Of a stretch of DNA of 64,000 nt, positions 28,053 to 63,959 are shown one piece after another. Location: contig OZ242013.1 in the NCBI GenBank assembly GCA_965204805.1, positions 4,589,232-4,653,231 of the forward strand, in the 5' to 3' direction. Each line of letters starts with the position of its first letter. Position 1 is the stretch's first letter. A model generated the notes under the pieces. That model was given only the letters and a program-made list of their open reading frames with translations. It ran no database searches and was not told the origin of the DNA. Position numbers and translations under genes: made by a program. The stretch comes from Dehalococcoidia bacterium (GTDB lineage Bacteria > Chloroflexota > Dehalococcoidia > Lucifugimonadales > UBA3495).

Positions 28053-30422
28053 ATGACCCAGGAATTCAGCGATGGAGACCGTTATGACCTGGATGGCCGG
28101 GACCGTCTGTCCCGGCTCAGTGCGGCCAGCCTGCGCATCAGCGAGAGCCTGGACTTCGACACCGTGCTCCAAGAGGTGGTGGACAGCGCCCGTGTCCTGA
28201 CCGCCTCCCGCTACGGGGTGCTGACCACCCTGGACGGGTCGGGACGGCCCTTGGACTTCGTGACCTCCGGCCTGAGCGATGAGGAGCGACGGAGGCTGGA
28301 GGACTTCCTGCCCGAGGGCCTGCTGGTGTACCAGCACCTGAGCGCCCTGGACCGACCTCTGCGCCTCCAGGATTACCCCGCCGACATCGCTGCCCTGGGG
28401 CTGCCCGACTTTTCCCCGGTGCCCATCGGCCCCTTCCTGACGGTTCCCATCCGCCACGGGAGCCAGGGCGTGGGCAACATCTGCCCGGGGCGGGAGGAGG
28501 GCAGCCCGGAGTTCACCCGGGAGGACGAGGAGACCCTGGTGATGTTCGCCTCCCAGGCGGCCCTGGTCATCGCCAACGCCCGGCGGCACCGGGAGGAGCG
28601 GCGGGCCCGGGCAGACCTAGAGACTCTGGTGGAAACCTCGCCCGTGGGCGTGGTGGTCTTCGACGTGAGGGACCGCCGTCTGGCGTCCATGAACCGCGAG
28701 GCCAGGAGAATCCTGGCCGGCCTGTTGGAAGAGGGCGGGTCCTGGGAGCAGTTGCTGGGCACCCTGAGCTTCCGCCGGGGCGACGGGAGAGAGGTGTCCC
28801 TGGGGGACCTGACGGTCTACGAGGCCCTGGGCGCCGGGGAGACGGTGCGGGCCGAGGAGATCGCCATCGGGCTGCCCGGCGGGCGCAGCGTCACCGCCCT
28901 GGTCAACGCCACGCCTATCCGCTCGGAGGAGGGGGAGATCGAGTCCTTCGTGGTGACCCTGCAGGACCTGGCGCCCCTGGAGGAGATGGAACGTCTGCGG
29001 GCCGAGTTCCTGGGGATGGTGAGCCACGAGCTCCGCACGCCGTTGACCTCCATTCGGGGCTCGGCCAACACGTTGCTGGAGGAGGAGTCATCCCTCGACC
29101 CGGTGGAAATGCGTCAGTTCCATCGCATCATCATGGAGCAGTCCGAGCACATGCGGGGCCTGATCAACAACCTGCTGGACGTGGCCCGCATCGAGACGGG
29201 CGCGTTGTCGGTATCCCCGGAGCCTTCGGAGGTGTCATCCCTGGTGGAGGAGGCCCGCAACACCTTCCACAGGACCGGCGGCAGACACAACCTGGACATC
29301 GATCTGGCGCCGGACCTGCCCCTAGTGCTGGCGGACCGGCGGCGGGTGGCCCAGGTGCTGAACAATCTGCTCTCCAACGCGGCCCGGCACTCGGGAGAGC
29401 CGTCCTCCATCGCCGTGAGCGTCCGCAGGCAGGGTCTGCACGTGGCCCTTTCGGTGTCGGACCGGGGCCGGGGCATCTCGGCCGAGCAGTTGCCCCACCT
29501 GTTCCGCAAGTACGCTCGCCCGTACGGCGAGACGGGCGGCCGGGACCCGGGGGCGACGGGCCTGGGGCTGGCCATCTGCAAGGGTATAGTAGAGGCTCAT
29601 GGGGGCCGCATCTGGGCCGAGAGCGAGGGGCCGGACCTGGGCGCGCGCTTCACCTTCACCCTTCCGGCGTTGGAGGAGGGGTCCGGCGCCACCGCCGGAA
29701 CCCGTTCTCGTTCCCGCCGGTCGGGACGGGGCCGGACCCGGGTCCTGGCGGTGGATGACGACCCCCTGGCACTGCGCTACATCCGGGACGTGCTCTCCCG
29801 GGCAGGCTACCATCCGGTGGTGACCCCCAACCCGGACGACGTGCTCCGGCTGCTTGAGGAGGAGCGGCCCCAGCTGGCGCTGCTGGACCTGGTCTTGCCG
29901 GAGGGCGACGGCATTGAACTGATGCAGCGCATCCTGGCCACCACCGACGTGCCGGTGATCTTCGTCTCCGCCTACGGTCAGGAGGAGAACGTCACCAGGG
30001 CGTTGGACATGGGGGCCGTGGACTATGTGACCAAGCCCTTCTCAGCCTCGGAGTTGACGGCCCGCATCCGGGCCGCCCTCCGGCAGCGGGCCGGGGTCAT
30101 ACCAACGGCACAACCCCCGCCCTACGCGCTGGGGGACCTGGCCATCGACTACGCCCAGCGGCGGGTGACCTTGGCCGGTGTGCCGCTGGAGCTGACTCCC
30201 ACGGAGTACGGGGTGCTCTACGAGCTGTCGGCCCACGCCGGAACGGTGCTGACCCACCAGCAGTTGCTGGTGAGGGTCTGGGGCGCGGGCCGCTCCGGGG
30301 ATTCGGGGCTGGTGCGCACCATCGTCAGGAGGCTGCGGGCCAGGCTGGGCGACGACGCCGACGAGCCGAAGTACATCTTCACAGAGCCCCGGGTCGGCTA
30401 CCAGATGCCCGTGGGGGGATAG
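28053..30422 (+). CDS. Hybrid sensor histidine kinase / OmpR-family response regulator (GAF-PAS-HisKA-HATPase-REC-winged helix in one polypeptide)
   Basis: The ORF track gives 28032-30422; ATG 28053 with the GGAGG RBS is preferred. H-box MVSHELRTPLTSIRG. N/G boxes LLSNAARHS, DRGRGI, GLGLAICKGIVEAHGG. REC: RVLAVDDDPLALRYI...LLDLVLPEGDGIELM...KPF. OmpR/PhoB-type trans_reg_C: LTPTEYGVLYELSAHAGTVLTHQQLLVRVWG....LVRTIVRRLRARLGDD...PKYIFTEPRVGYQM. Confidence 0.9.
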   Translation: MTQEFSDGDRYDLDGRDRLSRLSAASLRISESLDFDTVLQEVVDSARVLTASRYGVLTTLDGSGRPLDFVTSGLSDEERRRLEDFLPEGLLVYQHLSALDRPLRLQDYPADIAALGLPDFSPVPIGPFLTVPIRHGSQGVGNICPGREEGSPEFTREDEETLVMFASQAALVIANARRHREERRARADLETLVETSPVGVVVFDVRDRRLASMNREARRILAGLLEEGGSWEQLLGTLSFRRGDGREVSLGDLTVYEALGAGETVRAEEIAIGLPGGRSVTALVNATPIRSEEGEIESFVVTLQDLAPLEEMERLRAEFLGMVSHELRTPLTSIRGSANTLLEEESSLDPVEMRQFHRIIMEQSEHMRGLINNLLDVARIETGALSVSPEPSEVSSLVEEARNTFHRTGGRHNLDIDLAPDLPLVLADRRRVAQVLNNLLSNAARHSGEPSSIAVSVRRQGLHVALSVSDRGRGISAEQLPHLFRKYARPYGETGGRDPGATGLGLAICKGIVEAHGGRIWAESEGPDLGARFTFTLPALEEGSGATAGTRSRSRRSGRGRTRVLAVDDDPLALRYIRDVLSRAGYHPVVTPNPDDVLRLLEEERPQLALLDLVLPEGDGIELMQRILATTDVPVIFVSAYGQEENVTRALDMGAVDYVTKPFSASELTARIRAALRQRAGVIPTAQPPPYALGDLAIDYAQRRVTLAGVPLELTPTEYGVLYELSAHAGTVLTHQQLLVRVWGAGRSGDSGLVRTIVRRLRARLGDDADEPKYIFTEPRVGYQMPVGG

Positions 30423-44787: not shown

Positions 44788-44966
44788 CGCTCTCTCCTAA
44801 TCTGGGAAGTCTTCGCATATCTTGAGAATCCGCCTGGTATTCAGGCGCTATTGAAGTGCTGGGTATAGGGACTTCAGCATAATTCGTGCGTCTTGGGTGG
44901 TAAAACGCCAAGTGGCACGTACCGAGTCGCGGTTTCCCCGTCCTAGCCAGGTCTGGGTTTCGCGTT

Positions 44967-45218
44967 TCAGGACGTCCTCACTGGGAATCCGGCTCGGACG
45001 GGCCCAGCATAGGGCCGGGCGTGAAGCCTCCGGTGGTGTGCCGAGGTGGCGTACTGAAGCCTCTCGTTCAAGGCGCGGGAGATGCTGGGATGGTCGCGCT
45101 CCACAGCGTAGAGCAGCCTCACCAGAACTGACAAGGAGAGGGCGAGATTCTCAACGACAGGCAAGGCCCTTTCTGCGTATTCAGAGCCTACCAGTGGGAC
45201 GAGGATTCTCGTGTACAT
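44967..45218 (-). pseudogene. Universal stress protein (UspA-family) N-terminal fragment
   Basis: MYTRILVPLVGSEYAERALPVVENLALSL matches the canonical Usp N-terminus (ILVP.DGSE.AERAL). The remainder of the ORF loses similarity and no C-terminal ATP-binding G-2x-G-9x-G(S/T) motif is found. It is truncated or frameshifted. Confidence 0.45.
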
Positions 45219-50867: not shown

Positions 50868-51833
50868 GTGGTTTTTCCACCGCATTTTTGGCGACTCATC
50901 ATGGGCACACTTCCCTCGTTCATAGAGGCTCTCTGGGCCCTGAAATATGTGGTGTCCGGCAAGGTGAAGCCGCTGCGGGAGGATAAGGGAACTGCGATGG
51001 AAGAGGCCAGAGCTGTACGAGACGGGCAGAGAGCCTGGGCCACGGAGAACGGAGTCCCCTTCGATTCTCGCGGCTACGTTGATGACGTTGAAATGAATCT
51101 CAGGCGACCCCTGTCCGCAGCGGCTCGGGAGGCTTTTGAGAAAGGGGCGGGGTCAGAGCTTGCCGGGCACATGAGGGCGCTGCACTCGTCTTCTGCCCTG
51201 GTGGTCAACTTCTTCGACTACTGGAGCTGTAGGGACAAGGATCCACTCCTATTCGCCTTCGGCATCAGCGGCAAAGTGGCAGACCGTCTGGAATTCGAGG
51301 CCCGTTTCCCCACAGGGCTGGGAGGGACTCCGCCACATCTTGACGTTGTGATATGGCTCCTGTCAGGCGAGGCCATCGCAGTGGAGAGCAAATTCACCGA
51401 ACACCTGGGGCGGTCCACTAAGGGAAAATCCCGCTTTGAACCCTCGTACTTCCCCGAACAAAGGGGACTCTGGGAGGAGAAAGGCCTGCCCGCAAGCCAG
51501 TTATTCGCCGAAGAACTGAACGCCGGACTCCATCGCTTTGAATCCCTGGACCCGTGGCAACTCCTAAAACACGCCCTGAGCCTGGCCAATGTCCTCGGTC
51601 AGGCTTTTCGCTTAGTTTACCTTTACTACGACTCACCCGGGGGAAGGGCCCAGCAGCACCGGCGGGAAGTCCGGAGATTCGGCGACGCCGAGCGAGACGA
51701 TTTCATATTTGAACCGCGGGCGTACCAGACGGTTTACCAGCACCTCACGACTTTTGAGGACACGGACCTTGGCTACCTCGAATACATCGACTACTTCGGG
51801 ACCAGGTACTTCCCCGACGTCCTCAGACGATGA
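50868..51833 (+). CDS. PD-(D/E)xK nuclease-fold protein (putative)
   Basis: ALHSSSALVVNFF followed by PPHLDVVIWLLSGEAIAVESKFTEHL gives a D...(E)xK arrangement typical of restriction-endonuclease-like folds. The start is uncertain (possibly MGTLPSF at ~50901). Confidence 0.55.
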   Translation: MVFPPHFWRLIMGTLPSFIEALWALKYVVSGKVKPLREDKGTAMEEARAVRDGQRAWATENGVPFDSRGYVDDVEMNLRRPLSAAAREAFEKGAGSELAGHMRALHSSSALVVNFFDYWSCRDKDPLLFAFGISGKVADRLEFEARFPTGLGGTPPHLDVVIWLLSGEAIAVESKFTEHLGRSTKGKSRFEPSYFPEQRGLWEEKGLPASQLFAEELNAGLHRFESLDPWQLLKHALSLANVLGQAFRLVYLYYDSPGGRAQQHRREVRRFGDAERDDFIFEPRAYQTVYQHLTTFEDTDLGYLEYIDYFGTRYFPDVLRR

Positions 51834-52031
51834 TGTTTCCGTGCCCGCCCTTTGGGGATCCTCCAGGGGTCGCGCGGGGTGTTCGGATGGAGCCGGAAAG
51901 CGCCGTAAATGGATGCAAATGCACCCCTTACCGGTTGTCACCGGCTCTTGATGATTTCCATTCCGAGCGGCTACGACTTTGACAGGCCCCAGTAAACTAC
52001 TGTCTGGCAGTCTCGGAAAAGGAGACCCAGT

Positions 52032-53255
52032 ATGCCTCCGGCCGTTATAGCATGGCTCGACTATTCTCAGGCTGATCAGCGCCGGGCGCGGGAAATCGTT
52101 GCGATGTTCTCCCAGGCCGAAAGCCGGGACGAGCTCGGGATTGGTCAGATCCGGGATGCCCTGAGCGACACGCTGTTCCCTGGAACCTCGGTACTGTTAA
52201 CCCGTGCGCGGTACCTGCTGTTCGTTCCATGGCTTTACCGGGAGGGAGCCCGCCTGGGACGCCACGGCCCGCAGCTCGCATCATGGGTCGACTGGCACGA
52301 GCGGCGCCTGATCGACGCTCTTAGCAACGGCGGCGACCGGGAGGGATTGATTGGCCGAGTTGCGGGAGCGGCGATTCAGAACCTGCCCTCTACAATTTAT
52401 TGGAACAGCCTGCGCCGTTTCGCCATTCTGAGGGACGATGCAAGCCCAACGCAGATAGTGAGTCATCGACCGCTGGCACGCCGGTCCAATGACGCAACCG
52501 AGTTTGTAGAACACTCGGATTCAGTCTGGGATCCCTCGATGCCAAACCCTCCGGAGGACTTCTTCGCGCTCAGCAGTTGCGATTTCACCCTCACCGGAGA
52601 CGAGGCCACCTGGCTTGCCGAACGCATCTGCCAGGCCGCCCCCGACACCCTGCTCCAATTCCTGGTGGCCAAGGGCACCCGGCGCCACGAGGTCGCCCGG
52701 TTCGCTTGGGATGATCCCGAGGTCAAAGCGGCCCCCGAACAAATACGCGACGGCGTCGCCCAGGCGGAGCGCTTCGCAGTGGTGATGCACGGGGCAGCGC
52801 TGCTCTACAACATTCTCCTTGCCGAGCGTGAGGAAGAACTCGGTCTATCCCAGTATGACGGACAACGAGAACATTTCGCTGGCCGGCTTGAACAGTGGCA
52901 GAATGAAATTGGGAGAGGCGACCTGAATGGATGGGACCTTGACCGGCTGTGGGCCCTGGTCTCGATGCAGGGAAGGCCCGTCTCGCCAATCACACGCGCA
53001 TTCGTCACTCAGTGGGCCAGGCTGATACGGGAGAGACACAGCCGTGCATTCACTGACGACTCGGATGCGCGGACGCTGATTCGGGAACGGGAACTCCGCC
53101 AGAAAGGAGGGCAGGCGCGACTCCGCAACGACAGGCTCATGCGACAGTGGGGAGGGGCATCGGGGTCCGGTCGCCTCAACTTCCGGTGGCCAGTGGTTGC
53201 CCGTCTCCTGAATGACATCGCCGAGGGCAGGGAGGATGGAAATGCTGCCTCCTGA
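52032..53255 (+). CDS. Hypothetical protein (407 aa), first gene of a PLD-helicase cluster
   Basis: RBS GGAGAcccagtATG. N-terminal DELGIGQIRDALSDTLFPGTSVLLTRARYLLFVPWLY block. The 3' end overlaps the next gene. Confidence 0.6.
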   Translation: MPPAVIAWLDYSQADQRRAREIVAMFSQAESRDELGIGQIRDALSDTLFPGTSVLLTRARYLLFVPWLYREGARLGRHGPQLASWVDWHERRLIDALSNGGDREGLIGRVAGAAIQNLPSTIYWNSLRRFAILRDDASPTQIVSHRPLARRSNDATEFVEHSDSVWDPSMPNPPEDFFALSSCDFTLTGDEATWLAERICQAAPDTLLQFLVAKGTRRHEVARFAWDDPEVKAAPEQIRDGVAQAERFAVVMHGAALLYNILLAEREEELGLSQYDGQREHFAGRLEQWQNEIGRGDLNGWDLDRLWALVSMQGRPVSPITRAFVTQWARLIRERHSRAFTDDSDARTLIRERELRQKGGQARLRNDRLMRQWGGASGSGRLNFRWPVVARLLNDIAEGREDGNAAS

Positions 53256-55056
53256 CAACCGCGCGCTGCTGCTTGACGCACTTCAGCCGCCCCTGGGCCA
53301 CTCCCTGGACCGCGCAGTCGCAACGACGTTCACATTGGATCTCGAGACGGCCCTGATGGTGCCCCTGGCATTCGCGGGATTTCGAATCGACGAGAATCCG
53401 GACCCGATCGAGATCATGGAGGCACTCCGAAGAATGAGCGAGAAGTTGGACATTTTCTGCCAGGCCGGCGCCATCAGCGCGGCCAGGTGGCCGTCCGACC
53501 TGGTGGCTCTTCTCGAGAACGTCATACACGAGGTCAGGCGACCCCGGCCGGGCCGCATCTTTCATCCGAAGGTCTGGGCGCTCCGGTTTCTGGATCCATC
53601 AGGGAAACCCGCATACCGGCTTGTCGTGCTCACCCGGAACCTCACCGCCGACCGCAGTTGGGATACGATCCTCTGGCTTGACGGTCATCCGGAGGGGCGG
53701 CGTCCAATTGCCAGCAATCGCCCGCTGGCCAGCTTCTTCGAGGCACTGCCAGGACTTGTGTCCGCCGGCCTCGCCGGGGAGAGGAGTGCCGCCGTATCAG
53801 AACTGGCCCAGGAACTAAGGCAGGTAAGCTGGGAACTGCCGGACGGGGTGCGCGAGGCCCGCTTCCACCCGATCGGGATTCGCGGATTTCGTTCCTTTCC
53901 GGTGGAGGACCATTTCACCGGCTACCGAAGGCTCGTCATCTCTCCCTTTGTCCGGGATGGGTTTATACAGCGGATACTCGACGCCGCACCTAGCCGGGCA
54001 GCGACGCTGGTTTCACGGGGCGAGGAGTTGACGGCACTTCGAACGGACACCCTTGACCGTCTGAGCGCCTACGAACTGGATTCCGCGGCCCAACTCTCGG
54101 TGGCTGACCTTGACCGTGACACAGACCGTACCTTCCTCAACAATAACAATCTGCACGCAAAGGTTTACGTGGCTGAGCGGGCCCGACTGGCGCATCTATA
54201 CATTGGCTCACCGAACGCGACCGAGGGAGGGTTCAACGGCAACGTGGAGTTTCTGTGCCAGCTCGTCGGCCCCGTGGCAAAGTACGGGGTTGATGCGCTC
54301 GTGGGTGAGAATGCACCGATGCGTGCTCTGCTGACTCCGCACGTTCCTTCCGAGACGCCGGAGACCGATGAGAGCGATAAGGTTGGGAGGGCGCTTCAGG
54401 ATTTGCTCATGGACATCGCCGCCGATGTTGGGTTCCGTACCATTGTCACTAAAGCGCCTGATGGCTGGGCACCCTGCATAACGGCGGATTCGGAGTTGCC
54501 GCACATGCCCGACGGCACGACCGTAACCATCGCCGCCCATAACCGTCCGGCCGAGACTTACACGCTGCGTCCCGGCGAACCTGTCGCGGTGGAACTGCCC
54601 ACACGCGAAATTGCGGATATCACCCCGTTTCTTCAACTCACCGCCGGACGGGCGGATGGGGGCATGGTCATCGAACGATCGACGGTGATCTGCTCCCGGC
54701 TGGAAGGGGAGCAGGCAGATCGCTATAGCGAGATCTTTGCCAGGCAGATCGATACCCCGGAGAAGTTCCTCCGGCTCCTGACCCTTCTCATGGGATTCGG
54801 CTCCGGAGGCGTCATTGGCGTCCGTTCCGGAACAGGCGGTTGGGCGGAAGGCTGGTCGGCGGGCGCCGGCGCCGGTGTCCTGGAGTTGCTGGCGCGGGCC
54901 CTCTCCGAGAACCCTGACTCGATCGACCACCTGGCCACCATCATTGACCATGTGCGAGCGTCGGCAAGAGGGACGGCGATACTCCCTCCCGGCTGGGATG
55001 ATGTGTGGATACCCGCACTTGAGGCCAGGCGCGCCATGCAGGGAGCTGATACATGA
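53236..55056 (+). CDS. Phospholipase-D-family (two HxK motifs) nuclease-like protein
   Basis: Two HKD-type motifs: IFHPKVWALRF...LVVLTRNLT and LHAKVYVAE....LYIGSPNATEGGF. The ORF track starts at 53212; ATG 53236 or 53242 behind GGGAGG is preferred. The stop overlaps the helicase start (ATGA at 55053-55056). Confidence 0.75.
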   Translation: MEMLPPDNRALLLDALQPPLGHSLDRAVATTFTLDLETALMVPLAFAGFRIDENPDPIEIMEALRRMSEKLDIFCQAGAISAARWPSDLVALLENVIHEVRRPRPGRIFHPKVWALRFLDPSGKPAYRLVVLTRNLTADRSWDTILWLDGHPEGRRPIASNRPLASFFEALPGLVSAGLAGERSAAVSELAQELRQVSWELPDGVREARFHPIGIRGFRSFPVEDHFTGYRRLVISPFVRDGFIQRILDAAPSRAATLVSRGEELTALRTDTLDRLSAYELDSAAQLSVADLDRDTDRTFLNNNNLHAKVYVAERARLAHLYIGSPNATEGGFNGNVEFLCQLVGPVAKYGVDALVGENAPMRALLTPHVPSETPETDESDKVGRALQDLLMDIAADVGFRTIVTKAPDGWAPCITADSELPHMPDGTTVTIAAHNRPAETYTLRPGEPVAVELPTREIADITPFLQLTAGRADGGMVIERSTVICSRLEGEQADRYSEIFARQIDTPEKFLRLLTLLMGFGSGGVIGVRSGTGGWAEGWSAGAGAGVLELLARALSENPDSIDHLATIIDHVRASARGTAILPPGWDDVWIPALEARRAMQGADT

Positions 55057-57212
55057 ACCGGAGCAGCGAGCACAGACGCCCAACGTCGCTTAGTGATTTT
55101 CAACGGGCAACGGCGCACCACGCCTTCAGGCGCCTGTATCGCGACTCCGATTCAACGAAACGGTTTCTCGTTGCTGATGAGACCGGCCTGGGCAAAACGC
55201 ACGTCGCCAGGGAGGTCATTTCCCTGGCCGTCAAGCACCTTCAACAGGTCGACCACGTGGGCCGCATCGACATCGTATACGTTTGCTCCAACGCGGACAT
55301 CGCCGCTCAGAACATACGCAAGCTGGATATCGCCGGATCCGACAGGCCGAGCTTCGCAACCCGGCTGAGCCTGCTCATCACCAAGCCCGAGATGTTGAGG
55401 CCCACGGCGCCCGAAGGAGGCAAGCCGACGACCTTTGTGGCATTCACGCCGGCCACCTCTTTCCAGCTGGGACAGCAGATGGGAAGGAAGGAGGAGCGCG
55501 CCGTCCTCTATGTGCTGCTTCGCGACCACCTGGGGCTCTATGGAGCGCGGACCACGGCGGCGCTGCGAATCTTTCAGGGAGGGGTGGGCAACTGGCAGAA
55601 ATTCCGGGACCGTGACGTCGCGAATCTTGATGTAGGGTCCTTTGATCAAGGCATCCGTCAGGCATTCTACGAGGAGTTCGACCAGAGCTCCGAGAGCAAC
55701 TCCCTCGTCTCCCTGGTCGATGAGGTCACCGGGCGCAGGTCATTGACCGATCACCAGCGGGACACCGCGCGCACCATCATGGGTGAACTTCGCAGAATGC
55801 TGTCGCGAGCAGCGTTGAAGGCGCTCGAACCGGACCTCGTGATTCTTGACGAATTTCAGCGCTTCCGGAACCTGCTGGACGTCAAGACAGGAGGCGACGC
55901 GGCCGAACTGGCAGACGACCTCTTCAGCCATGCGGACTCCCACGTGCTGTTGCTCTCGGCCACTCCTTACAAGCCGTTTACCTACGCGGAGGAGGCGGAC
56001 GCCAGCGGTGGACACTATGGGGACTTCCTGAAGACCCTGGAATTCCTCGCCGCCTCCGAGACCGCCGTGGACGCTGTGCGGGCCGATCTTAATGAACTGC
56101 GGCAGGCGGCCCTGTCGGGCGTGCCGACGGCTGATGTCCGGGACCGGGTGCAGTCCCAATTGAGGAGATGGATGGCCCGGACCGAGCGCCCGTCCGGCAC
56201 CAACCGCACAGCGACTACCCGCGGGGACACGAACCAACTCCGGGTCAGGGCCGAGGACTTCAGCGGCTTCGTCGCCCTGCGGAATGTCGCCCATGCCGTG
56301 GATGCTCCGTTCACCGTTGAGTATTGGAAGTCGTCCCCCTACTTCCTCAATTTCCTCAGGGGGTACCGGGTCGGTGAAAATTTGCGGGACGGCATGAAGG
56401 ACCTCGATCGCAGGACCCGGTTGGTACCGCTGTTCGAGGGAGCCCAGCGGATCTCCAGGACCGATGTGGAGCAGTTCAATAAACTCGAATGGGGAAACGC
56501 CCGCATGCGCGCCTTGGCTGCCGAGACCCTCGATCAGGAGTGGTGGAAACTACTGTGGATGCCCCCGTCCCTCCCTTACCATGCCCTCGCCGGTCCGTAT
56601 GAAACGGTCGATCCAACCTCAATCACCAAGAGCCTCATCTTCTCCAGTTGGGTGGCCGCCCCTTCGGCCATCGCCTCACTACTCAGCTACGAGGTGGAGA
56701 GACGGATCTTCACGCAGGGAGGACACTCCGTTAATACGCCCGCAGACCGGGCGTCCATTGCCAGCCGCCTCGACTATCGAATGACCAACGGCCGCCCGTC
56801 CTCCATGACGGCACTAGCGCTTTTCTGGCCACAGCCGACGCTGGCCTCGCAAACCGATCCATTGGATGCCGCCCGTGAACACTGGAACGATCCGGAGCCT
56901 CCCGGCATCGGTCGCGTCGTCGAGTGGGCGCAGGGCCGGGTGGAGAACCTCGTCGGCCCGAACGGAAACACCCGGGCGACAACCAGCGCACAATGGTACT
57001 GGTTTGCGCCGGTGCGCTGCGAGAACGACAGCACCCTCGGATCGGAACTGATAAACGCACGGCGCAGCAGTCTCGTTGATGCGTTGGTCGGCACTTCGGA
57101 GGGCCGCGGTACTGAGGACACCTCGGGCGCCCTCCGGGAACACGTAAACATGATGGTGGGTGCCCTGGGCAACCGGGAGCCGGATACGGAGCGTCCGGCG
57201 GACCTGCAGTAG
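55053..57212 (+). CDS. SF2 helicase, N-terminal part (motifs I-III); ends at an in-frame TAG
   Basis: Motif I LVADETGLGKTHVA, motif II LVILDEFQRFRN, motif III LLLSATPYK. TAG at 57210-57212. The same frame stays open immediately afterwards and carries the C-terminal helicase lobe. Confidence 0.8.
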   Translation: MNRSSEHRRPTSLSDFQRATAHHAFRRLYRDSDSTKRFLVADETGLGKTHVAREVISLAVKHLQQVDHVGRIDIVYVCSNADIAAQNIRKLDIAGSDRPSFATRLSLLITKPEMLRPTAPEGGKPTTFVAFTPATSFQLGQQMGRKEERAVLYVLLRDHLGLYGARTTAALRIFQGGVGNWQKFRDRDVANLDVGSFDQGIRQAFYEEFDQSSESNSLVSLVDEVTGRRSLTDHQRDTARTIMGELRRMLSRAALKALEPDLVILDEFQRFRNLLDVKTGGDAAELADDLFSHADSHVLLLSATPYKPFTYAEEADASGGHYGDFLKTLEFLAASETAVDAVRADLNELRQAALSGVPTADVRDRVQSQLRRWMARTERPSGTNRTATTRGDTNQLRVRAEDFSGFVALRNVAHAVDAPFTVEYWKSSPYFLNFLRGYRVGENLRDGMKDLDRRTRLVPLFEGAQRISRTDVEQFNKLEWGNARMRALAAETLDQEWWKLLWMPPSLPYHALAGPYETVDPTSITKSLIFSSWVAAPSAIASLLSYEVERRIFTQGGHSVNTPADRASIASRLDYRMTNGRPSSMTALALFWPQPTLASQTDPLDAAREHWNDPEPPGIGRVVEWAQGRVENLVGPNGNTRATTSAQWYWFAPVRCENDSTLGSELINARRSSLVDALVGTSEGRGTEDTSGALREHVNMMVGALGNREPDTERPADLQ

Positions 57213-57263
57213 ACAGCCGCGCTGCTGGGCCTAGGAGCTCCCGGCAACATCGCGTGGAGAGCG

Positions 57264-58280
57264 TTGAGCCGCCTCAGGAAGCCGGAAGGCCAGGTGACGG
57301 AATTTGGCCTGTGGCGGGCCGCATCCATGCTGGCATCCGGTCTCCGCAGCCTGTTTGTCCGGCCCGATGCGGAACTGCTGCTGGACACAATCTACGGTGG
57401 GTCGCGCGTTGCCCGAGAGGGCGCCGGTGCGTACTGGCGTAAGGTGGCCCGGTATTGCATCGACGGGGACCTGCAGGCGGTTCTTGACGAGTATGTCCAC
57501 CATCTGGCCGGAGAGTCCGGGGCCAACATCGAGACTGATGAGGGTCTTTTCTCTTTTGCAGAGTCCGCACGGGGGGCAATAGCCCTAAGGCCGTCGGTGT
57601 ATCGTGCCACCGACATTGATCACTTCGACGCCCAGGGAATATCTTTCCCCAGCCGGTACGCCCTGCGGTTTGGCAGCGCGCAGCGCAGCCACGAGGAGGC
57701 CAGGCTTCCCGAGGTGAGGGCAGCCTTCAACTCGCCCTTCTGGCCGTTCGTCCTTGCAACAACATCAATTGGGCAGGAGGGAATTGATTTCCATTGGTGG
57801 TGCCACTCCGTCGTGCATTGGAACCTTCCCGGCAATCCAGTCGACTTCGAGCAGCGTGAGGGCAGGGTGGACCGCTACAAGGGACACGCAATCAGGAAGA
57901 ACGTCGCGGCCGCTCACCGGTCGGCGGCATTGGCTCCTGGAGTGGTGGATCCCTGGACTGCTGCATTTGAGGCCGCGGCGAAAGAGACTGACAGGGACAC
58001 CGGCGGTCTCTCGCCCTACTGGATTTATTCGGGGGATGCCCGGATCCATCGGAGACTGTTGTCTCTCCCATTGAGCCGCGATGAGGACCGGTGGGCCCAG
58101 TTGCAGGATTCGCTGGCGCTCTACCGGCTGGCGTTCGGCCAGCCGAGGCAGGAGGACATGCTGGCCGCGCTGCAACGTCGCGGCATCATTAGCCGCCCCG
58201 AGGAAATTGATGACCTGCGAATCGATTTGCGGCCGCCGGTGTCTGTCATCGGCCAAGCAAATCCGGAACCGGCGAGGTAG
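57264..58280 (+). CDS. SF2 helicase, C-terminal part (motifs V-VI), same frame as 55053-57212
   Basis: VLATTSIGQEGIDFH (motif V) and FEQREGRVDRYKG (motif VI, QxxGRxxR). No stop occurs between 57213 and 57263, so 55053-58280 is one 1075-codon helicase gene interrupted by a single amber codon. The alternative is a split helicase starting at TTG 57264. Confidence 0.75.
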   Translation: MSRLRKPEGQVTEFGLWRAASMLASGLRSLFVRPDAELLLDTIYGGSRVAREGAGAYWRKVARYCIDGDLQAVLDEYVHHLAGESGANIETDEGLFSFAESARGAIALRPSVYRATDIDHFDAQGISFPSRYALRFGSAQRSHEEARLPEVRAAFNSPFWPFVLATTSIGQEGIDFHWWCHSVVHWNLPGNPVDFEQREGRVDRYKGHAIRKNVAAAHRSAALAPGVVDPWTAAFEAAAKETDRDTGGLSPYWIYSGDARIHRRLLSLPLSRDEDRWAQLQDSLALYRLAFGQPRQEDMLAALQRRGIISRPEEIDDLRIDLRPPVSVIGQANPEPAR

Positions 58281-58806
58281 CCCCAGGAAATATCGCAAAC
58301 AAGCTCACCCCAGAGTCAGCATAAGCGCGCTGAGCTGTTGAGCATTGCCAGCGTTGAATTGCATTTGGTTAAGGTGTTCGGCGTTTTGAACCAGCCCCGC
58401 AGGGATTAACTACCTCAGTCCCGTTGCGGGCGCTGGCCACAGACAGCAGGAGCCACCAGTGTAGTGCGAGCATTGGTATTCTGAAACATCAGGACCAGGT
58501 TTCAGCAGCTCATTGCCCTGTACTTAAGGTCACAGAACGCGCTGTCTCCGAACTGGCAGTACCGGTTGCCAAGACCAGGGATTAGGCCAAGGCAAACTTG
58601 CCAATTGCAGCTGGATACATTCCTTTTGCGCCTCGAATAGCCATCTCTGACCGACCATGTGTGGGACGTGTCGGCATACACGTCCGGTTGTCAAGGGCGC
58701 CGCGAATGTGGGCCACTGGGGTGTCGAAGGCCAGCATGAATGTCCGCACCAATTGTTCAGGAGGAATGTCTCCCTGACGTCTGCACAAGGGCGGGCAGAG
58801 GTCGTC

Positions 58807-59265
58807 CTACAGACGGTCCAGCAACTTGGCAATCTGATCGGTGTGGTTCATGTCGGGCTCCCATTCGCAGATCACACCGTGTTCGTCGATGACAACTGCG
58901 GGCCTTTTCCCATCTGACGGGTCTTTGACGTACCTCTCTCCATCGAAAGCGGACATGCCTAACTCAATTCCTACTCGTCGATCAGGATCGTTCAGGACCG
59001 CGAATGGAAGCTGCTCTTTCTCGACCCACTGGCGGGCAGCATCCAAGCTTCCGTCATGGATTCCGAACAGCACGACGTTCTTCTCGGTGAACTTGGCAGC
59101 ATGCTCTCGGTACCCAAGAGCCATGCGGGTTCAATTACCGCCGCCCGGATTGGTGAAGAAGTACAGCAGGACCTTTTGTCCGCGCAGGCTGCCAAGGGAT
59201 ATCGTCTGTCCATCGCTGGATTGAAGTGTGAAACCGGAAATCGTCTTCCCGATGTAAGTTTCCAT
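58807..59265 (-). CDS. bcp: Bcp-type peroxiredoxin with in-frame TGA at the peroxidatic Cys position (probable selenoprotein)
   Basis: RBS AAAGGAcggcaataATG (59265). METYIGKTISGFTLQSSDGQTISLGSLRGQKVLLYFFTNPGGGN-TGA-TRMALGYREHAAKFTEKNVVLFGIHDGSLDAARQWVEKEQLPFAVLNDP... This aligns with E. coli Bcp ..[26 protein letters not shown]..., and the TGA (59131-59133) falls exactly on the Cys of PGCT. The ORF-track pieces 59131-59682 (3' part) and 58807-59124 are in the same frame. Confidence 0.7.
59099..59126 (-). promoter_or_regulatory. SECIS-like hairpin immediately downstream of the in-frame UGA
   Basis: RNA: UGA-ACCC-GCAUG(G)CUCUUGG-GUA-CCGAGAGCAUGC. It has 12 bp including one G-U pair, one bulged G, and a G-rich apical region 16-20 nt after the UGA. 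Confidence 0.55.
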
Positions 59266-59871
59266 TATTGCCGTCCTTTCCGGTGAGACTTGATGGAACC
59301 GGCGCGCATGGGAGAACCGTTCCCCATGCAGTTGCTGGGCTGCGGAAGTCTGGTGCTGAGTCAAGGCCGAAGTGTCAGGATATAAGAGGCGGAGTTTGGC
59401 TCTGGCGTATTCGGCGATGAAACGCCCGTTGCCGGCGGATGCCGCCGCGTTGCGCTCTGTCACGTAGATGCTGATGCTCCTCGATAGCGGCTCCCCGCTG
59501 GGATTTCTGCCTTTGAGAGAAGCATAAGCCAGCACGATGAACTGGGTCTCTGCCAGGTTCAGCTGGCGGACCCGATGCGGTATTTGCTTGTGCCGCACAC
59601 AGTGCAGACAGCACGCAGGGCAGGACGCCCGTTTTTCAGGGTCACCTGTTCCACATCCCGTGAGCCGGTCTTGGCCCGGCACCTCAAGCAGTAGATTTCA
59701 ACAGATTCGGAAGGCGTAGCCATGATTGAAGGCTCCTGGTCCGAAGTTTGCCAGGATTATAGCCAAAGGAAAGCCTCCGCCGTATGCGACTGCGAGACCG
59801 GCCGGCCCTTCGGATTATGCACACTGAAATTGCCCGGATTCTCTCGGGAGCTACGGGACGGCGCGGATGGA

Positions 59872-60189
59872 CTAGATAACCCTGTCTCCCCACCCTGGAG
59901 TGGATTGGCTCTCCGGCTCGCCCGCCACTCCGGGCAGCGGTGTAAGCATAACACGCCAACGGGGAGTCTCCTTGGATGCCTCGACCAGGAATTCCCCCAG
60001 GGGGACATCAACGTCGATATCATCGAATTCGAAGTTGAACGCCGCCTTCACATGAACTGGGCACACAAGTCCCGCCGTGGCGTTGTTCTCCTGTCCCACC
60101 CGCCTCAGCTCCTCTCGCTCGGCAAGGGTCATCTTCAGGCGGCGGTAACAGCCGGCAATAGCGCATTTGACCTGGACCTTTCTGGCCAT
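59872..60189 (-). CDS. Small hypothetical protein (105 aa)
   Basis: ORF with plausible composition (MARKVQVKCAIAGCYRRLKMTLAEREELRRVGQ...). No motif recognised; weak call. Confidence 0.3.
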   Translation of the reverse strand: MARKVQVKCAIAGCYRRLKMTLAEREELRRVGQENNATAGLVCPVHVKAAFNFEFDDIDVDVPLGEFLVEASKETPRWRVMLTPLPGVAGEPESQSTPGWGDRVI

Positions 60190-63338: not shown

Positions 63339-63959
63339 ATGCCCGCCTACGGCTACATCAGGACCAGCCGGGAGCAGGATCCCGGCCACCCCGGCAGCGA
63401 TCCTGAGGTGCAGCGCCGCCAGCTCATAGACGTCGGCGTTGACCCCGGGCGCATCTATGCCGACGTCGCCGTCTCCGGCGCCACGCCGGGCAGTTCCCGC
63501 AACCAGTGGCACCTCCTCGACCAACTGCTCGCCTCGGGCGACGTCTTGGTGGTGGCCGCCGTCGACCGGCTGGGCTGACGCTACCTCGAGACCATGTGGG
63601 CGATATACGACCTGCAGCGCAGTGGAATCCGGCTCCGGTCCCTGGCCGGCAACGTAGGCGAATGGGCCAGGTTCCTGGACGCCGCCCCGGACTCCCCGGA
63701 GGCCTTCATGGGCAATATCTTGGCCAGCATGGCAGGCTGCGTGGCCAGCCAGGAACGCCAGAGCATCAGCCGCAGGACCAGGGCGGGGTTGGACGCTGCC
63801 AGGATGAAGGGCAAGGAGCTGGGGCGGCCACGGCGTCTCACCGGGGAGCAGCTCACCGCCATCAGCTAGGACCTGGCCGACGAGGTGCCCGTGGCCGCGG
63901 TGGCCAGGAAATAGGGCGTGCCGCGGTCCACGCTCCGGGGCGCGCTGTGCCGAAGTTGA
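63339..63959 (+). pseudogene. Small serine recombinase (resolvase/invertase family) inactivated by three in-frame stop codons
   Basis: MPAYGYIRTSREQD carries the catalytic Ser context. ..VLVVAAVDRLG-TGA(63576)-RYLETMWAIYDLQRSGIRLRSL..ERQSISRRTRAGLDAARMKGKELGRPRRLT..TAIS-TAG(63867)-DLADEVPVAAVARK-TAG(63912)-GVPRSTLRGAL. All parts are in one frame and there is an HTH at the C-terminus. The stops sit where family members usually have R, a polar residue and Y. Confidence 0.8.

What the first reader, a model, noticed from the sequence alone, without database searches (positions are those of the whole stretch)
58807..59265. Probable selenocysteine-containing Bcp-type peroxiredoxin (UGA at the peroxidatic Cys, followed by a SECIS-like hairpin)
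Two ORF-track pieces are in one frame, separated only by TGA at 59131-59133. Joined, they give a 152-residue protein that aligns along its whole length with Bcp/PrxQ peroxiredoxins. The TGA falls exactly where the family has the peroxidatic Cys: PGCT in E. coli Bcp, GN-U-T here.

Four nt after the UGA a 28-nt hairpin begins (59099-59126). It has 12 bp and one bulged G, and its G-containing apex lies 16-20 nt from the UGA. That is the geometry expected for a bacterial SECIS.

Sec-containing Prx-like proteins are known from metagenomic selenoproteome surveys. The family precedent therefore exists, but standard annotation would call this a pseudogene or two fragments.
Basis: partly seen in the sequence, partly recalled or inferred. 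Interest (0 to 1): 0.7.

Follow-up and report, generated by a model that had tools for sequence, protein, structure and literature searches.

The report
Selenocysteine peroxiredoxin-like gene, misannotated as fragment
A small antioxidant-type enzyme gene in a Dehalococcoidia (SAR202-type) bacterium almost certainly uses an in-frame UGA "stop" codon to insert selenocysteine at its active site; this is a known kind of recoding, but public gene calls cut this family down to a 105-residue fragment.

Summary
Window 58807-59265 (minus strand) is one 152-codon AhpC/TSA (peroxiredoxin-fold) reading frame. Its single in-frame TGA (59131-59133) aligns with the peroxidatic Cys of Bcp/PrxQ enzymes, and a hairpin follows it.

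Comparative data support selenocysteine (Sec):
- 86 homologous loci, all assigned ones in Dehalococcoidia/SAR202 genomes and down to about 51% protein identity, keep TGA at this codon. Five distinct relatives have TGC (Cys).
- Both halves of the gene are under purifying selection.
- Synonymous variation collapses only in codons +4 to +9 after the UGA. These form a conserved 7-8 bp stem with a GUA loop that meets all four published bacterial SECIS criteria.
- Cys forms encode the same peptide with other codons and have no conserved hairpin.
- One relative has tRNA-Sec 0.8 kb away. Two SAR202 bins carrying 91-93% identical copies were reported to have SelA and SelB.

- Only the upper stem is conserved, not the 12-bp hairpin.
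- The protein lacks the Pro and Thr of the canonical PxxxTxxC motif, so it is Prx-like, not a canonical Bcp.
- No sel genes or tRNA-Sec lie in the window, so the source genome remains untested.

Novelty is modest: a new member of a known kind. As a side observation, the gene sits in a multi-copy, IS-flanked module.

The parts
58807..59265 (-). Complete selenoprotein gene: 152 codons plus TAG stop. AhpC/TSA-fold, Prx-like protein with Sec at codon 45.
   Evidence: Translation. Pfam PF00578 E 3e-20. PDB Bcp/PrxQ alignments. The AlphaFold model of a Cys-form homologue (pLDDT 87.8) matches BCP/PrxQ structures best, TM 0.84. dN/dS is about 0.16 for the part before the UGA and about 0.11 for the part after it.
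59131..59133 (-). UGA codon 45, read as selenocysteine. It occupies the position of the peroxidatic Cys.
   Evidence: TGA at this codon in 86 homologous loci. TGC in 5 distinct Cys forms and CGA in one contig. Aligned with the catalytic Cys of solved Prx structures.
59104..59120 (-). Conserved SECIS core: 7-bp stem CUCUUGG/CCGAGAG (8 bp if G59121-C59103 also pair) closing a GUA triloop at 59113-59111. The stem starts 10 nt after the UGA.
   Evidence: RNAalifold consensus over 38 distinct sequences. Pairs are kept through U-A to A-U, U.G to C-G and U.G to U-A changes. Relative synonymous entropy is 0.20 here against 0.80 gene-wide, and 0 of 100,000 random codon sets are as low. The bSECIS criteria are met.
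59099..59126 (-). The lower 5-bp stem GCAUG/CAUGC and bulged G are present only in the window's clade.
   Evidence: Fold of the region. The lower-stem pairs are broken in 2 to 13 of 38 sequences, and codons +1 and +2 vary freely.
59274..59281 (-). Probable ribosome-binding site GGAAAGGA, 8 nt upstream of the ATG at 59265. It lies within a roughly 80-nt leader conserved among the close copies.
   Evidence: Sequence. Leader conserved across loci. Its role as an RBS is inferred.

Best explanation
The gene encodes a single 152-residue selenoprotein of the AhpC/TSA (peroxiredoxin) fold.

Recoding (inferred from the standard bacterial pathway). During translation, UGA-45 is not read as stop. The hairpin that begins 10 nt downstream (a 7-8 bp stem with a G-U-A loop) recruits SelB carrying Sec-tRNA(Sec), which inserts selenocysteine.

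Active site. Sec sits in the first turn of helix alpha-2, where peroxiredoxins carry the peroxidatic Cys, alongside the conserved Arg (R121).

Most likely chemistry (inferred). This would be a 1-Sec peroxidase-type cycle. The selenolate attacks a peroxide or other oxidised substrate, giving a selenenic acid. An external thiol then reduces it, because the family has no conserved resolving Cys. The reductant could be thioredoxin, glutaredoxin or a low-molecular-weight thiol.

Departure from canonical peroxiredoxins. The Pro and Thr of the PxxxTxxC motif are replaced throughout the family (FFT-[NS]-[PS]-GGGN-U-TRM). The substrate may therefore not be a simple peroxide.

What is shown and what is inferred. 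Shown: the intact frame, the fold, the Sec/Cys pairing, the conservation and the RNA-level constraint. Inferred: actual Se insertion, and peroxidase activity.
For: Frame and fold:
- There is one frame, one TGA and a PF00578 match. The TGA aligns with the catalytic Cys in PDB alignments.
- A Cys-form homologue modelled at pLDDT 87.8 places its Cys46 at the start of helix 44-55. The best structural matches are BCP/PrxQ, TM 0.84.

Conservation of the TGA:
- TGA is kept in 86 loci down to about 51% identity, and 5 distinct relatives have TGC.
- 'W' in JGI proteins is TGA translated with code 4.
- Window versus close copies gives dN/dS of 0.039/0.241 upstream of the TGA and 0.023/0.204 downstream.

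RNA-level constraint:
- Among 24 representatives below 90% nt identity, synonymous sites are close to random everywhere except codons +4 to +9. These are GCU 23/24, CUY 22/22, GGG 22/24, UAC 24/24 and GAG 22/22.
- That 6-codon window is the global minimum of 68 sliding windows. Mean relative entropy is 0.20 against 0.80, and 0 of 100,000 random sets are as low.
- Changes inside the stem keep pairing: U-A to A-U in two sequences, U.G to C-G in 20 and U.G to U-A in two.
- Cys forms encode the same peptide with other codons and fold differently. Mean energy is -7.0 against -10.7 kcal/mol.
- The bSECIS consensus asks for a 3-9 nt loop, a 4-16 bp stem, G in the first two loop positions, 16-37 nt spacing and MFE <= -7.5 (PMC13188914). 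Here these are a 3-nt GUA loop, a 7-8 bp stem, 17 nt spacing and -12.0 kcal/mol.

Sec machinery in relatives:
- tRNA-Sec lies 0.8 kb from the homologue in L075 (ARAGORN; Rfam RF01852, 73.1 bits against a gathering score of 47).
- SAR202 bin16 and bin87 hold the TGA copies L058 and L049. They have SelA (1 and 3 copies) and SelB (1 and 1) in Table S4 of PMC5649159.

Genetic code: TGA is a normal stop elsewhere in the window.
Against: - The window has no tRNA gene and no recognisable selA, selB or selD motif. The Sec trait of the source genome itself is untested.
- The hairpin alone is not significant against shuffles, and no Rfam SECIS family matches it.
- Covariation is thin: 2 pairs with double changes. 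It is also confounded by the conserved peptide ALGYRE.
- The canonical Prx Pro and Thr are absent, so peroxidase chemistry is not assured.
- The window copy lies in an IS-rich repeated module next to decayed genes. It carries two unusual substitutions (G11 for D, N39 for S) and a 23-nt deletion just after its stop. This particular copy could therefore be less fit than its relatives.
- There is no protein-level evidence of any kind.
Confidence: 0.85

Rival explanations
1. The gene is a pseudogene, or two unrelated fragments. A nonsense mutation (TGC/TGT or CGA/TGG to TGA) killed a Cys-type Bcp-like gene. The hairpin is incidental G+C-rich structure.
For: The hairpin alone is not significant. 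The window does contain a genuine TGA-interrupted pseudogene, a resolvase at 63339-63866. The gene lies among IS remnants. Public gene callers report only a 105-aa fragment.
Against: The same TGA is present in 86 loci across lineages down to about 51% identity. dN/dS is 0.11-0.16 on both sides of the TGA. There are no other stops or frameshifts. A nucleotide-level constraint sits exactly on the hairpin and is absent from Cys forms.
Confidence: 0.02
2. UGA-45 is read through, but not as Sec. It would be decoded by a near-cognate or suppressor tRNA (Trp, Cys, Arg or Gly), or under a reassigned genetic code.
For: Sec machinery was not found in the window. JGI's pipeline translated the codon as W. 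One contig has CGA (Arg) at the site.
Against: TGA terminates 15 of 26 long ORFs in the window and is never internal in the others, so there is no reassignment. The replacement seen in relatives is Cys, the hallmark of Sec/Cys pairs. A conserved structure matching the bSECIS model follows the codon. tRNA-Sec, SelA and SelB are present in relatives. Trp or Arg at a catalytic Cys position would be inactive.
Confidence: 0.04
3. It is a genuine selenoprotein but not a peroxidase. It would be a Prx-fold selenol/thiol oxidoreductase acting on another substrate, for example mixed disulfides or sulfenylated, LMW-thiol-conjugated or electrophile-modified molecules. The peroxide-activating Thr and the capping Pro of peroxiredoxins are missing.
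For: T38 and G42 replace the Pro and Thr of PxxxTxxC in all 24 representatives and in the Cys forms. All NCBIfam peroxiredoxin models score far below their cut-offs: 61 bits against 140, and 43.8 against 260. A DinB_2/mycothiol-S-transferase-like gene follows the gene in about 18 loci. MsrB follows it in L075. ResA-type thiol-disulfide oxidoreductases are also close structural matches.
Against: The best sequence and structure matches are BCP/PrxQ and AhpE peroxidases. The catalytic Arg is invariant. There is a single redox residue and no CxxC/UxxC, as in 1-Cys peroxiredoxins. The low pKa of Sec could compensate for the missing Thr (inference).
Confidence: 0.3
4. The family is a real selenoprotein family, but the copy in this window is a silent or decaying duplicate carried along in a mobile, IS-ridden module.
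For: Related genomes hold 2-3 copies each. The window copy has an IS630 transposase remnant upstream (59377-59562). It also has a 23-nt deletion after the stop, and the shared downstream tail is lost. G11 and N39 differ from residues that are otherwise well conserved.
Against: The ORF, Sec codon, SECIS core, RBS and leader are all intact. The window lineage shows dN/dS of about 0.1-0.16 against its relatives.
Confidence: 0.12

Closest known systems
Sec-containing peroxiredoxin (PrxU of Eubacterium acidaminophilum; the 'Prx, pfam00578, TxxU' selenoprotein family of marine metagenome surveys; PMC2398784, PMC13188914)
   Same: It has the AhpC/TSA domain. Sec sits at the peroxidatic-Cys position. 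Cys-containing homologues exist, and a bacterial SECIS lies directly downstream of the UGA within the coding sequence.
   Different: The motif is GGGN-U-TRM rather than PxxxTxxU, so the Thr at -3 and the Pro at -7 are absent. It is only distantly related, about 20-25% identical to characterised Prx. It occurs in Dehalococcoidia/SAR202.
BCP/PrxQ and AhpE 1-Cys peroxiredoxins (e.g. PDB 5enu, 3drn, 1xxu)
   Same: These are the best sequence and structural matches (E 1e-10; TM 0.82-0.84). Size is the same, about 150 aa. The catalytic Arg is conserved. As in AhpE and the 1-Cys BCPs, there is no resolving Cys.
   Different: Sec replaces Cys. The active-site loop is rebuilt without Pro and Thr. Scores fall below the NCBIfam cut-offs for thiol peroxidase (Bcp) and PrxQ.
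Prx-like thiol:disulfide oxidoreductase selenoproteins (pfam00578, UxxC/UxxU) and UGC-containing Prx-like proteins
   Same: They share the Pfam domain, and Sec sits at the N-terminus of the same helix.
   Different: There is no second Cys or Sec at +3 (the sequence is U-T-R-M) and no UGC, so a dithiol/selenol-thiol exchange mechanism within the motif is impossible.
E. coli fdhF-type bacterial SECIS
   Same: It is a stem-loop inside the ORF. The conserved upper stem starts 10 nt after the UGA; for the minimal fdhF element the figure is 11 nt, from my own knowledge of the literature. The loop begins with G-U.
   Different: The triloop is GUA, not GGUC. The conserved core has no bulged U. The element is much shorter, and there is no sequence similarity or Rfam match.

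Membership tests
Bacterial selenoprotein gene (Sec-UGA plus bSECIS) | In-frame UGA aligned with Cys in homologues (a Sec/Cys pair), with conserved sequence on both sides | tested here: met
   86 loci have TGA and 5 distinct forms have TGC. The N- and C-terminal parts both have dN/dS of 0.11-0.16.
Bacterial selenoprotein gene (Sec-UGA plus bSECIS) | A stem-loop meeting the bSECIS consensus: 3-9 nt loop, 4-16 bp upper stem, G in the first two loop positions, 16-37 nt from UGA to loop, MFE <= -7.5 kcal/mol | tested here: met
   The criteria come from PMC13188914. Here the loop is GUA, the stem 7-8 bp, the spacing 17 nt and the MFE -12.0 kcal/mol. The element is conserved, and synonymous variation over it is suppressed.
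Bacterial selenoprotein gene (Sec-UGA plus bSECIS) | selA, selB, selC (tRNA-Sec) and selD in the same genome | not testable with these tools
In relatives, tRNA-Sec lies next to the homologue in L075. SelA and SelB COGs are reported for SAR202 bin16 and bin87, which carry TGA copies.
Bacterial selenoprotein gene (Sec-UGA plus bSECIS) | Selenium demonstrably incorporated (75Se labelling or mass spectrometry) | not testable with these tools
   This needs an experiment.
Peroxiredoxin (Prx), BCP/PrxQ subfamily | Thioredoxin fold with an AhpC/TSA domain; catalytic Cys/Sec in the first turn of helix alpha-2 | tested here: met
   PF00578 E 3e-20. In the model, helix 44-55 starts at the Cys. The top Foldseek hits are BCP/PrxQ, TM 0.84.
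Peroxiredoxin (Prx), BCP/PrxQ subfamily | Universal PxxxT/SxxC active-site motif (Pro at -7, Thr/Ser at -3) | tested here: not met
   Aligned residues are T38 and G42. All 24 representatives have T at -7 and G at -3, and the Cys forms read GGNNC.
Peroxiredoxin (Prx), BCP/PrxQ subfamily | Conserved catalytic Arg | tested here: met
   R121 ('KRPAVVID') aligns with the Arg of 5enu 'ERSTFLID'. It is invariant in the family.
Peroxiredoxin (Prx), BCP/PrxQ subfamily | NCBIfam equivalog score for thiol peroxidase (Bcp) or PrxQ | tested here: not met
   NF006960 scores 61 bits against a cut-off of 140. NF053650 scores 43.8 against 260.
Peroxiredoxin (Prx), BCP/PrxQ subfamily | Peroxidase activity | not testable with these tools
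   This needs a biochemical assay.
'Prx (TxxU)' selenoprotein family | TxxU motif in a pfam00578 domain | tested here: not met
   The domain is present, but the motif is G-G-N-U. Family definitions are from PMC2398784 and PMC13188914.
Prx-like thiol:disulfide oxidoreductase selenoproteins (UxxC/UxxU; UGC) | A second Cys/Sec at +3, or a UGC motif | tested here: not met
   The sequence is U-T-R-M, invariant in the family.

The most novel reading that the evidence does not exclude
This would be a previously undescribed selenoprotein subfamily: a Thr-less, Pro-less 1-Sec Prx-like enzyme with the motif FFTS[PS]GGGN-U-TRM and a minimal GUA-triloop SECIS, confined to Dehalococcoidia/SAR202. In the sponge-symbiont-type clade it has been amplified to 2-3 or more copies per genome. 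It sits in a roughly 670-bp module kept at about 94% nucleotide identity across species and surrounded by IS630 elements and serine recombinases. That would make it a selenoprotein gene behaving as a mobile or amplified cassette, perhaps selected by oxidative stress in the host.
Probability: 0.4. Interest if true: 0.55.

Novelty: new member of a known kind. Interest (0 to 1): 0.4.

Why it matters
- Annotation. Every public gene call found for the Sec forms is a 105-aa fragment starting at Met48, or a wrong code-4 translation. The cluster that holds the window's fragment alone has 512 member sequences. The catalytic half, including the active residue, is therefore missing from databases for an abundant marine and sponge-associated lineage.
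- Selenium use. Correcting this adds a selenoprotein to the Dehalococcoidia/SAR202 inventory. It also fits the reported enrichment of SelA and SelB in sponge symbionts (PMC5649159).
- Enzymology. The family is a natural test of how far a peroxiredoxin active site can be rebuilt, since it has no Thr and no Pro, and of whether Sec compensates.
- Amplification. The multi-copy, IS-flanked arrangement hints that antioxidant selenoprotein genes can be amplified or moved. That would be unusual if confirmed.

Tried and rejected
- Rfam. Gathering thresholds on the whole window and E <= 10 on 59040-59180 gave no hit. There is no curated model for this SECIS, so the result is uninformative rather than negative.
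- Sec machinery. ARAGORN found no tRNA in the window. Motif scans for SelA (GDKLLGGPQ-type), SelB (GHVDHGKT) and SelD (GxGCGCK) over the window and all loci gave nothing credible.
- Other in-frame TGA genes in the window. The high-GC3 candidates were antisense shadows of real genes (28817-29776, and the 61-62 kb HEAT-repeat gene) or a decayed resolvase (63339-63866). No second selenoprotein candidate emerged from the GC3-ranked scan; only the top-ranked candidates were inspected.
- Metagenome scan with the Cys-form alignment. One pattern (GKKV[LV]LYF) was too generic. Only 6 of the 80 loci belong to the family, and the rest are ordinary Bcp.
The Cys-form homologue P0012 was modelled instead.
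- Look-up of the window's exact 105-aa fragment returned 'not on record'. The source MAG could not be named, although the sequence is listed on a 4,677,930-bp contig.
- Conserved synteny among the distant marine copies: none was found. MsrB and tRNA-Sec adjacency is unique to L075.
- Two Cys-form contigs (P0017, P0021) returned no DNA.
- Internal restart at Met48, giving a functional 105-aa protein, was rejected. Met48 is equally invariant in the contiguous Cys forms, and the fragment would lack the catalytic residue.
Full report
**1. The observation**

On the minus strand, 59265->58807 is a single frame of 152 codons. It reads METYIGK...LLYFFTNPGGGN*TRMALGYRE...LLDRL, with one internal stop, TGA at 59133-59131.

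With Cys at that codon, the protein matches Pfam AhpC-TSA over residues 5-132 (E 3e-20) and Redoxin. It also aligns with solved Bcp/PrxQ/AhpE structures. There the stop falls on the catalytic Cys, for example 5enu 'DNTPGCT' against 'PGGGNxT'.

Taken alone this hairpin is not remarkable in 62.6% G+C DNA. Its z-score is -1.42, and 18 of 200 shuffles fold as well.

**2. Relatives**

A protein search returned 115 relatives. Most are exactly 105 aa long and start at Met48, three codons after the TGA. This holds across 55-95% identity. A few are full-length 152-153 aa proteins.

The full-length proteins carry C, W or R at the critical position. The DNA shows that the 'W' proteins are TGA translated with genetic code 4 by the JGI pipeline. 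The 'R' is a true CGA in a single Tara contig. The 'C' forms are TGC.

A scan of one genome per species found 87 matching loci, of which 80 were kept. All are in Dehalococcoidia, SAR202 or other Chloroflexota MAGs. They include SAR202 bins 16 and 87 from the sponge Aplysina aerophoba.

Counting everything fetched, 86 loci have TGA at this codon, 5 distinct sequences have TGC, and one has CGA. TGA persists down to about 51% protein identity.

**3. Is the TGA translated?**

Both halves of the gene evolve under purifying selection. Comparing the window with its close relatives, dN/dS is 0.039/0.241 upstream of the TGA and 0.023/0.204 downstream.

In 24 representatives below 90% nucleotide identity, the upstream residues are conserved while their codons vary freely. 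These residues include F-33, G-16, Y-10, F-9, T-7, GGG at -4 to -2, and N-1.

TGA is not reassigned in this organism. It terminates 15 of 26 long ORFs in the window and is internal in none of the other 25.

The window also holds a genuine TGA-interrupted pseudogene, a resolvase at 63339-63866 with two in-frame stops. This shows what an ordinary nonsense mutation looks like here and contrasts with the Prx-like gene.

**4. The RNA element**

An alignment of 38 distinct Sec-type sequences (UGA plus 45 nt) gives an RNAalifold consensus containing only the upper stem, columns 14-20 paired with 24-30, plus the loop GUA. In the window this is 59120-59104.

Within that stem:
- Pair 17-27 is U-A in 26 sequences, U.G in 8 and A-U in 2 (a double change that includes an amino-acid change, Leu to His). 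It is broken in 2.
- Pair 18-26 is C-G in 20 sequences, U.G in 16 and U-A in 2.

The encoded peptide ALGYRE is itself conserved, so I tested synonymous sites. Relative synonymous entropy is about 0.8 across the gene but 0.20 for codons +4 to +9:
- GCU in 23/24
- CUC or CUU only
- GGG in 22/24
- UAC in 24/24
- GAG in 22/22
- the third base of the Arg codon varies mostly among bases that still pair.

This stretch is the lowest of the 68 sliding windows. None of 100,000 random codon sets is as low.

The five Cys forms encode the same or nearly the same peptide with other codons, for example GGC CUC GGC UAU CGA GAG. They have no common hairpin; mean energy is -7.0 against -10.7 kcal/mol.

The published consensus for bacterial SECIS asks for a 3-9 nt apical loop, a 4-16 bp upper stem, a G in the first two loop positions (mostly G followed by G or U), 16-37 nt between UGA and loop, and MFE <= -7.5 kcal/mol (PMC13188914). 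The element here has a GUA loop, a 7-8 bp stem, 17 nt spacing and -12.0 kcal/mol. All four criteria are met.

No Rfam family matches. That is expected for such short, diverse elements.

**5. Sec machinery**

The window contains no tRNA gene and no selA, selB or selD signature. I could not scan the source genome. Relatives give indirect support:
- In L075, a marine Dehalococcoidia MAG, a tRNA-Sec (anticodon UCA) lies 0.8 kb from the homologue, just beyond an msrB gene. It was found by ARAGORN and by Rfam RF01852 at 73.1 bits against a gathering score of 47.
- Slaby et al. (PMC5649159) report SelA and SelB COGs co-occurring in most sponge-symbiont bins. Their Table S4 lists SelA 1 and 3, and SelB 1 and 1, for SAR202 bin16 and bin87. 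These two MAGs hold L058 and L049, the TGA copies that are 91% and 93% identical to the window protein.

**6. What the protein is**

An AlphaFold model of the Cys-form homologue P0012 (62% identical; pLDDT 87.8, pTM 0.83) has the thioredoxin/Prx fold. The Cys sits at the start of helix 44-55.

Foldseek ranks BCP/PrxQ structures first, at TM 0.84. AhpE, 2-Cys Prx and ResA follow. The catalytic Arg (R121 in the window protein) is invariant.

The universal Prx motif PxxxT/SxxC is not present. The aligned residues are T38 and G42, and all representatives read T-[SN]-[PS]-G-G-G-N-U (Cys forms G-G-N-N-C).

NCBIfam thiol-peroxidase and PrxQ models score far below their cut-offs. No selenoprotein-specific NCBIfam model reaches its cut-off either.

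No Cys is conserved elsewhere. C134 is clade-specific, and the Cys at -28 is found in only part of the other lineages. A 1-Sec mechanism with an external reductant is therefore implied.

I file it as a Prx-like AhpC/TSA-fold selenoprotein that is closest to BCP/PrxQ. It is not a canonical Bcp. It also does not belong to the catalogued pfam00578 selenoprotein subfamilies: TxxU, UxxC/UxxU, UGC, UxxS and CxxU.

**7. Mechanism**

- Shown: the intact frame, the Sec/Cys pairing, the RNA constraint and the fold.
- Inferred from the standard bacterial pathway: SelB carrying Sec-tRNA(Sec) binds the hairpin 10 nt downstream and decodes UGA-45.
- Inferred from the family: the selenolate, activated by Arg121, reduces a peroxide or related oxidant, and an external thiol regenerates it.

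Two neighbouring genes fit a thiol-linked oxidative-stress role but do not prove one. A DinB_2/mycothiol-S-transferase-like gene follows the gene in about 18 loci, and msrB follows it in L075.

**8. Context and side observations**

The gene lies in a repeated module of about 670 bp: roughly 100 nt of leader, the gene, and roughly 110 nt of tail. About 59 of the fetched genome loci share this module at megablast level. Nucleotide identity to the window is about 94% across MAGs that represent different species.

Several MAGs hold 2-3 copies. The flanks differ between copies:
- an IS630 transposase 95 nt upstream in L017
- serine recombinases downstream in L001 and L017
- IS21 and other IS elements elsewhere.

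The window's copy has an IS630 C-terminal remnant at 59377-59562. This remnant creates the spurious 183-aa ORF extension. The copy also has a DUF5679 gene at 59559-59723 and a 23-nt deletion right after the stop. It loses homology to the other copies about 40 nt after the stop.

**9. Novelty and verdict**

Sec-containing peroxiredoxins and Prx-like proteins are long known. PrxU has been characterised, and 'Prx' is among the most abundant marine selenoprotein families (PMC2398784). The recoding mechanism here is standard.

What is new is modest:
- a lineage-specific subfamily with a rebuilt active-site loop
- a minimal triloop SECIS
- systematic misannotation in public data
- an apparently amplified or mobile genomic setting.

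I rate it a new member of a known kind, with interest 0.4. My confidence that the UGA encodes Sec is about 0.85. My confidence that the enzyme is a peroxidase in the strict sense is lower, at about 0.55.

Noticed in passing
window 58760-59343 and loci L010-L068 (gene at 6001-6459 in each): The Sec gene sits in a module of about 670 bp. About 59 genome loci share it at megablast level, and nucleotide identity to the window is about 94% across MAGs of different species. Several MAGs hold 2-3 copies, e.g. OZ244112.1, CBDCPE010000004.1 and CAXXKY010000003.1; CBDCPM has two copies 8.6 kb apart. The flanks differ between copies and are rich in IS630, IS21 and serine-recombinase genes. Short duplications of 'TAAGTCTCACC' occur at the upstream border in L011 and L030. 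This suggests amplification or mobility of a selenoprotein cassette.
   Followed up: partly
window 59377-59562 (-) and 44857-44991 (-): Remnants of the C-terminus of an IS630-family (DDE_3) transposase ('...ERNAA...RF...AR.KL..LYP'). The first is in frame with the Prx-like gene and explains the spurious 183-aa ORF 59131-59682.
   Followed up: yes
window 63339-63866 (+): A serine recombinase (resolvase) pseudogene with an in-frame TGA at 63576-63578 and a second stop further on. This is an ordinary nonsense-interrupted gene and serves as an internal contrast to the conserved Sec-TGA.
   Followed up: yes
window 50868-58280 (+): A run of genes resembling a defence island: REase-ARP nuclease, DUF6361, an unassigned 614-aa protein, and a DEAD-like helicase apparently split from its Helicase_C part (55053-57212 and 57264-58280).
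   Followed up: no
window 59559-59723 (-) and 59872-60189 (-): A small DUF5679 zinc-ribbon gene and a 105-aa ORF with no Pfam match lie upstream of the Prx-like gene. About 15 other loci share this extended segment of about 1.4 kb.
   Followed up: partly
window 59306-59329 (-): A perfect 6-bp inverted repeat, GCATGG-N12-CCATGC, lies in the conserved leader 41-64 nt upstream of the start codon. It is kept in most close copies and could be an operator or RNA structure.
   Followed up: no
L075 6001-7341: In one marine Dehalococcoidia MAG the homologue is followed by msrB (methionine-R-sulfoxide reductase) and then a tRNA-Sec gene on the opposite strand. No other locus shares this arrangement.
   Followed up: yes
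L014 6769-7296 and about 17 other loci: A co-oriented DinB_2/mycothiol-S-transferase-like gene (175 aa) lies about 310 nt downstream of the Sec gene in a subset of copies. It is absent from the window.
   Followed up: partly
L006 318-320 (Tara Oceans contig): One homologue has CGA (Arg) instead of TGA at the Sec codon while keeping the SECIS-type hairpin sequence. It could be a recent inactivating or sequencing-derived T-to-C change.
   Followed up: no
proteins P0002, P0022 (JGI) and P0003-P0110: Public gene calls either translate the Sec-UGA as Trp (code 4 applied to short contigs) or start the protein at Met48, giving 105 aa. The exact window fragment is catalogued as P0134 on a 4,677,930-bp contig. 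Its 90% cluster has 512 members.
   Followed up: yes
window 1876-22317 (-): Four very long ORFs on the minus strand (1741, 1330, 1556 and 1318 aa) with GC3 of 0.79-0.89 in the two measured (1741 and 1556 aa). They were not characterised.
   Followed up: no
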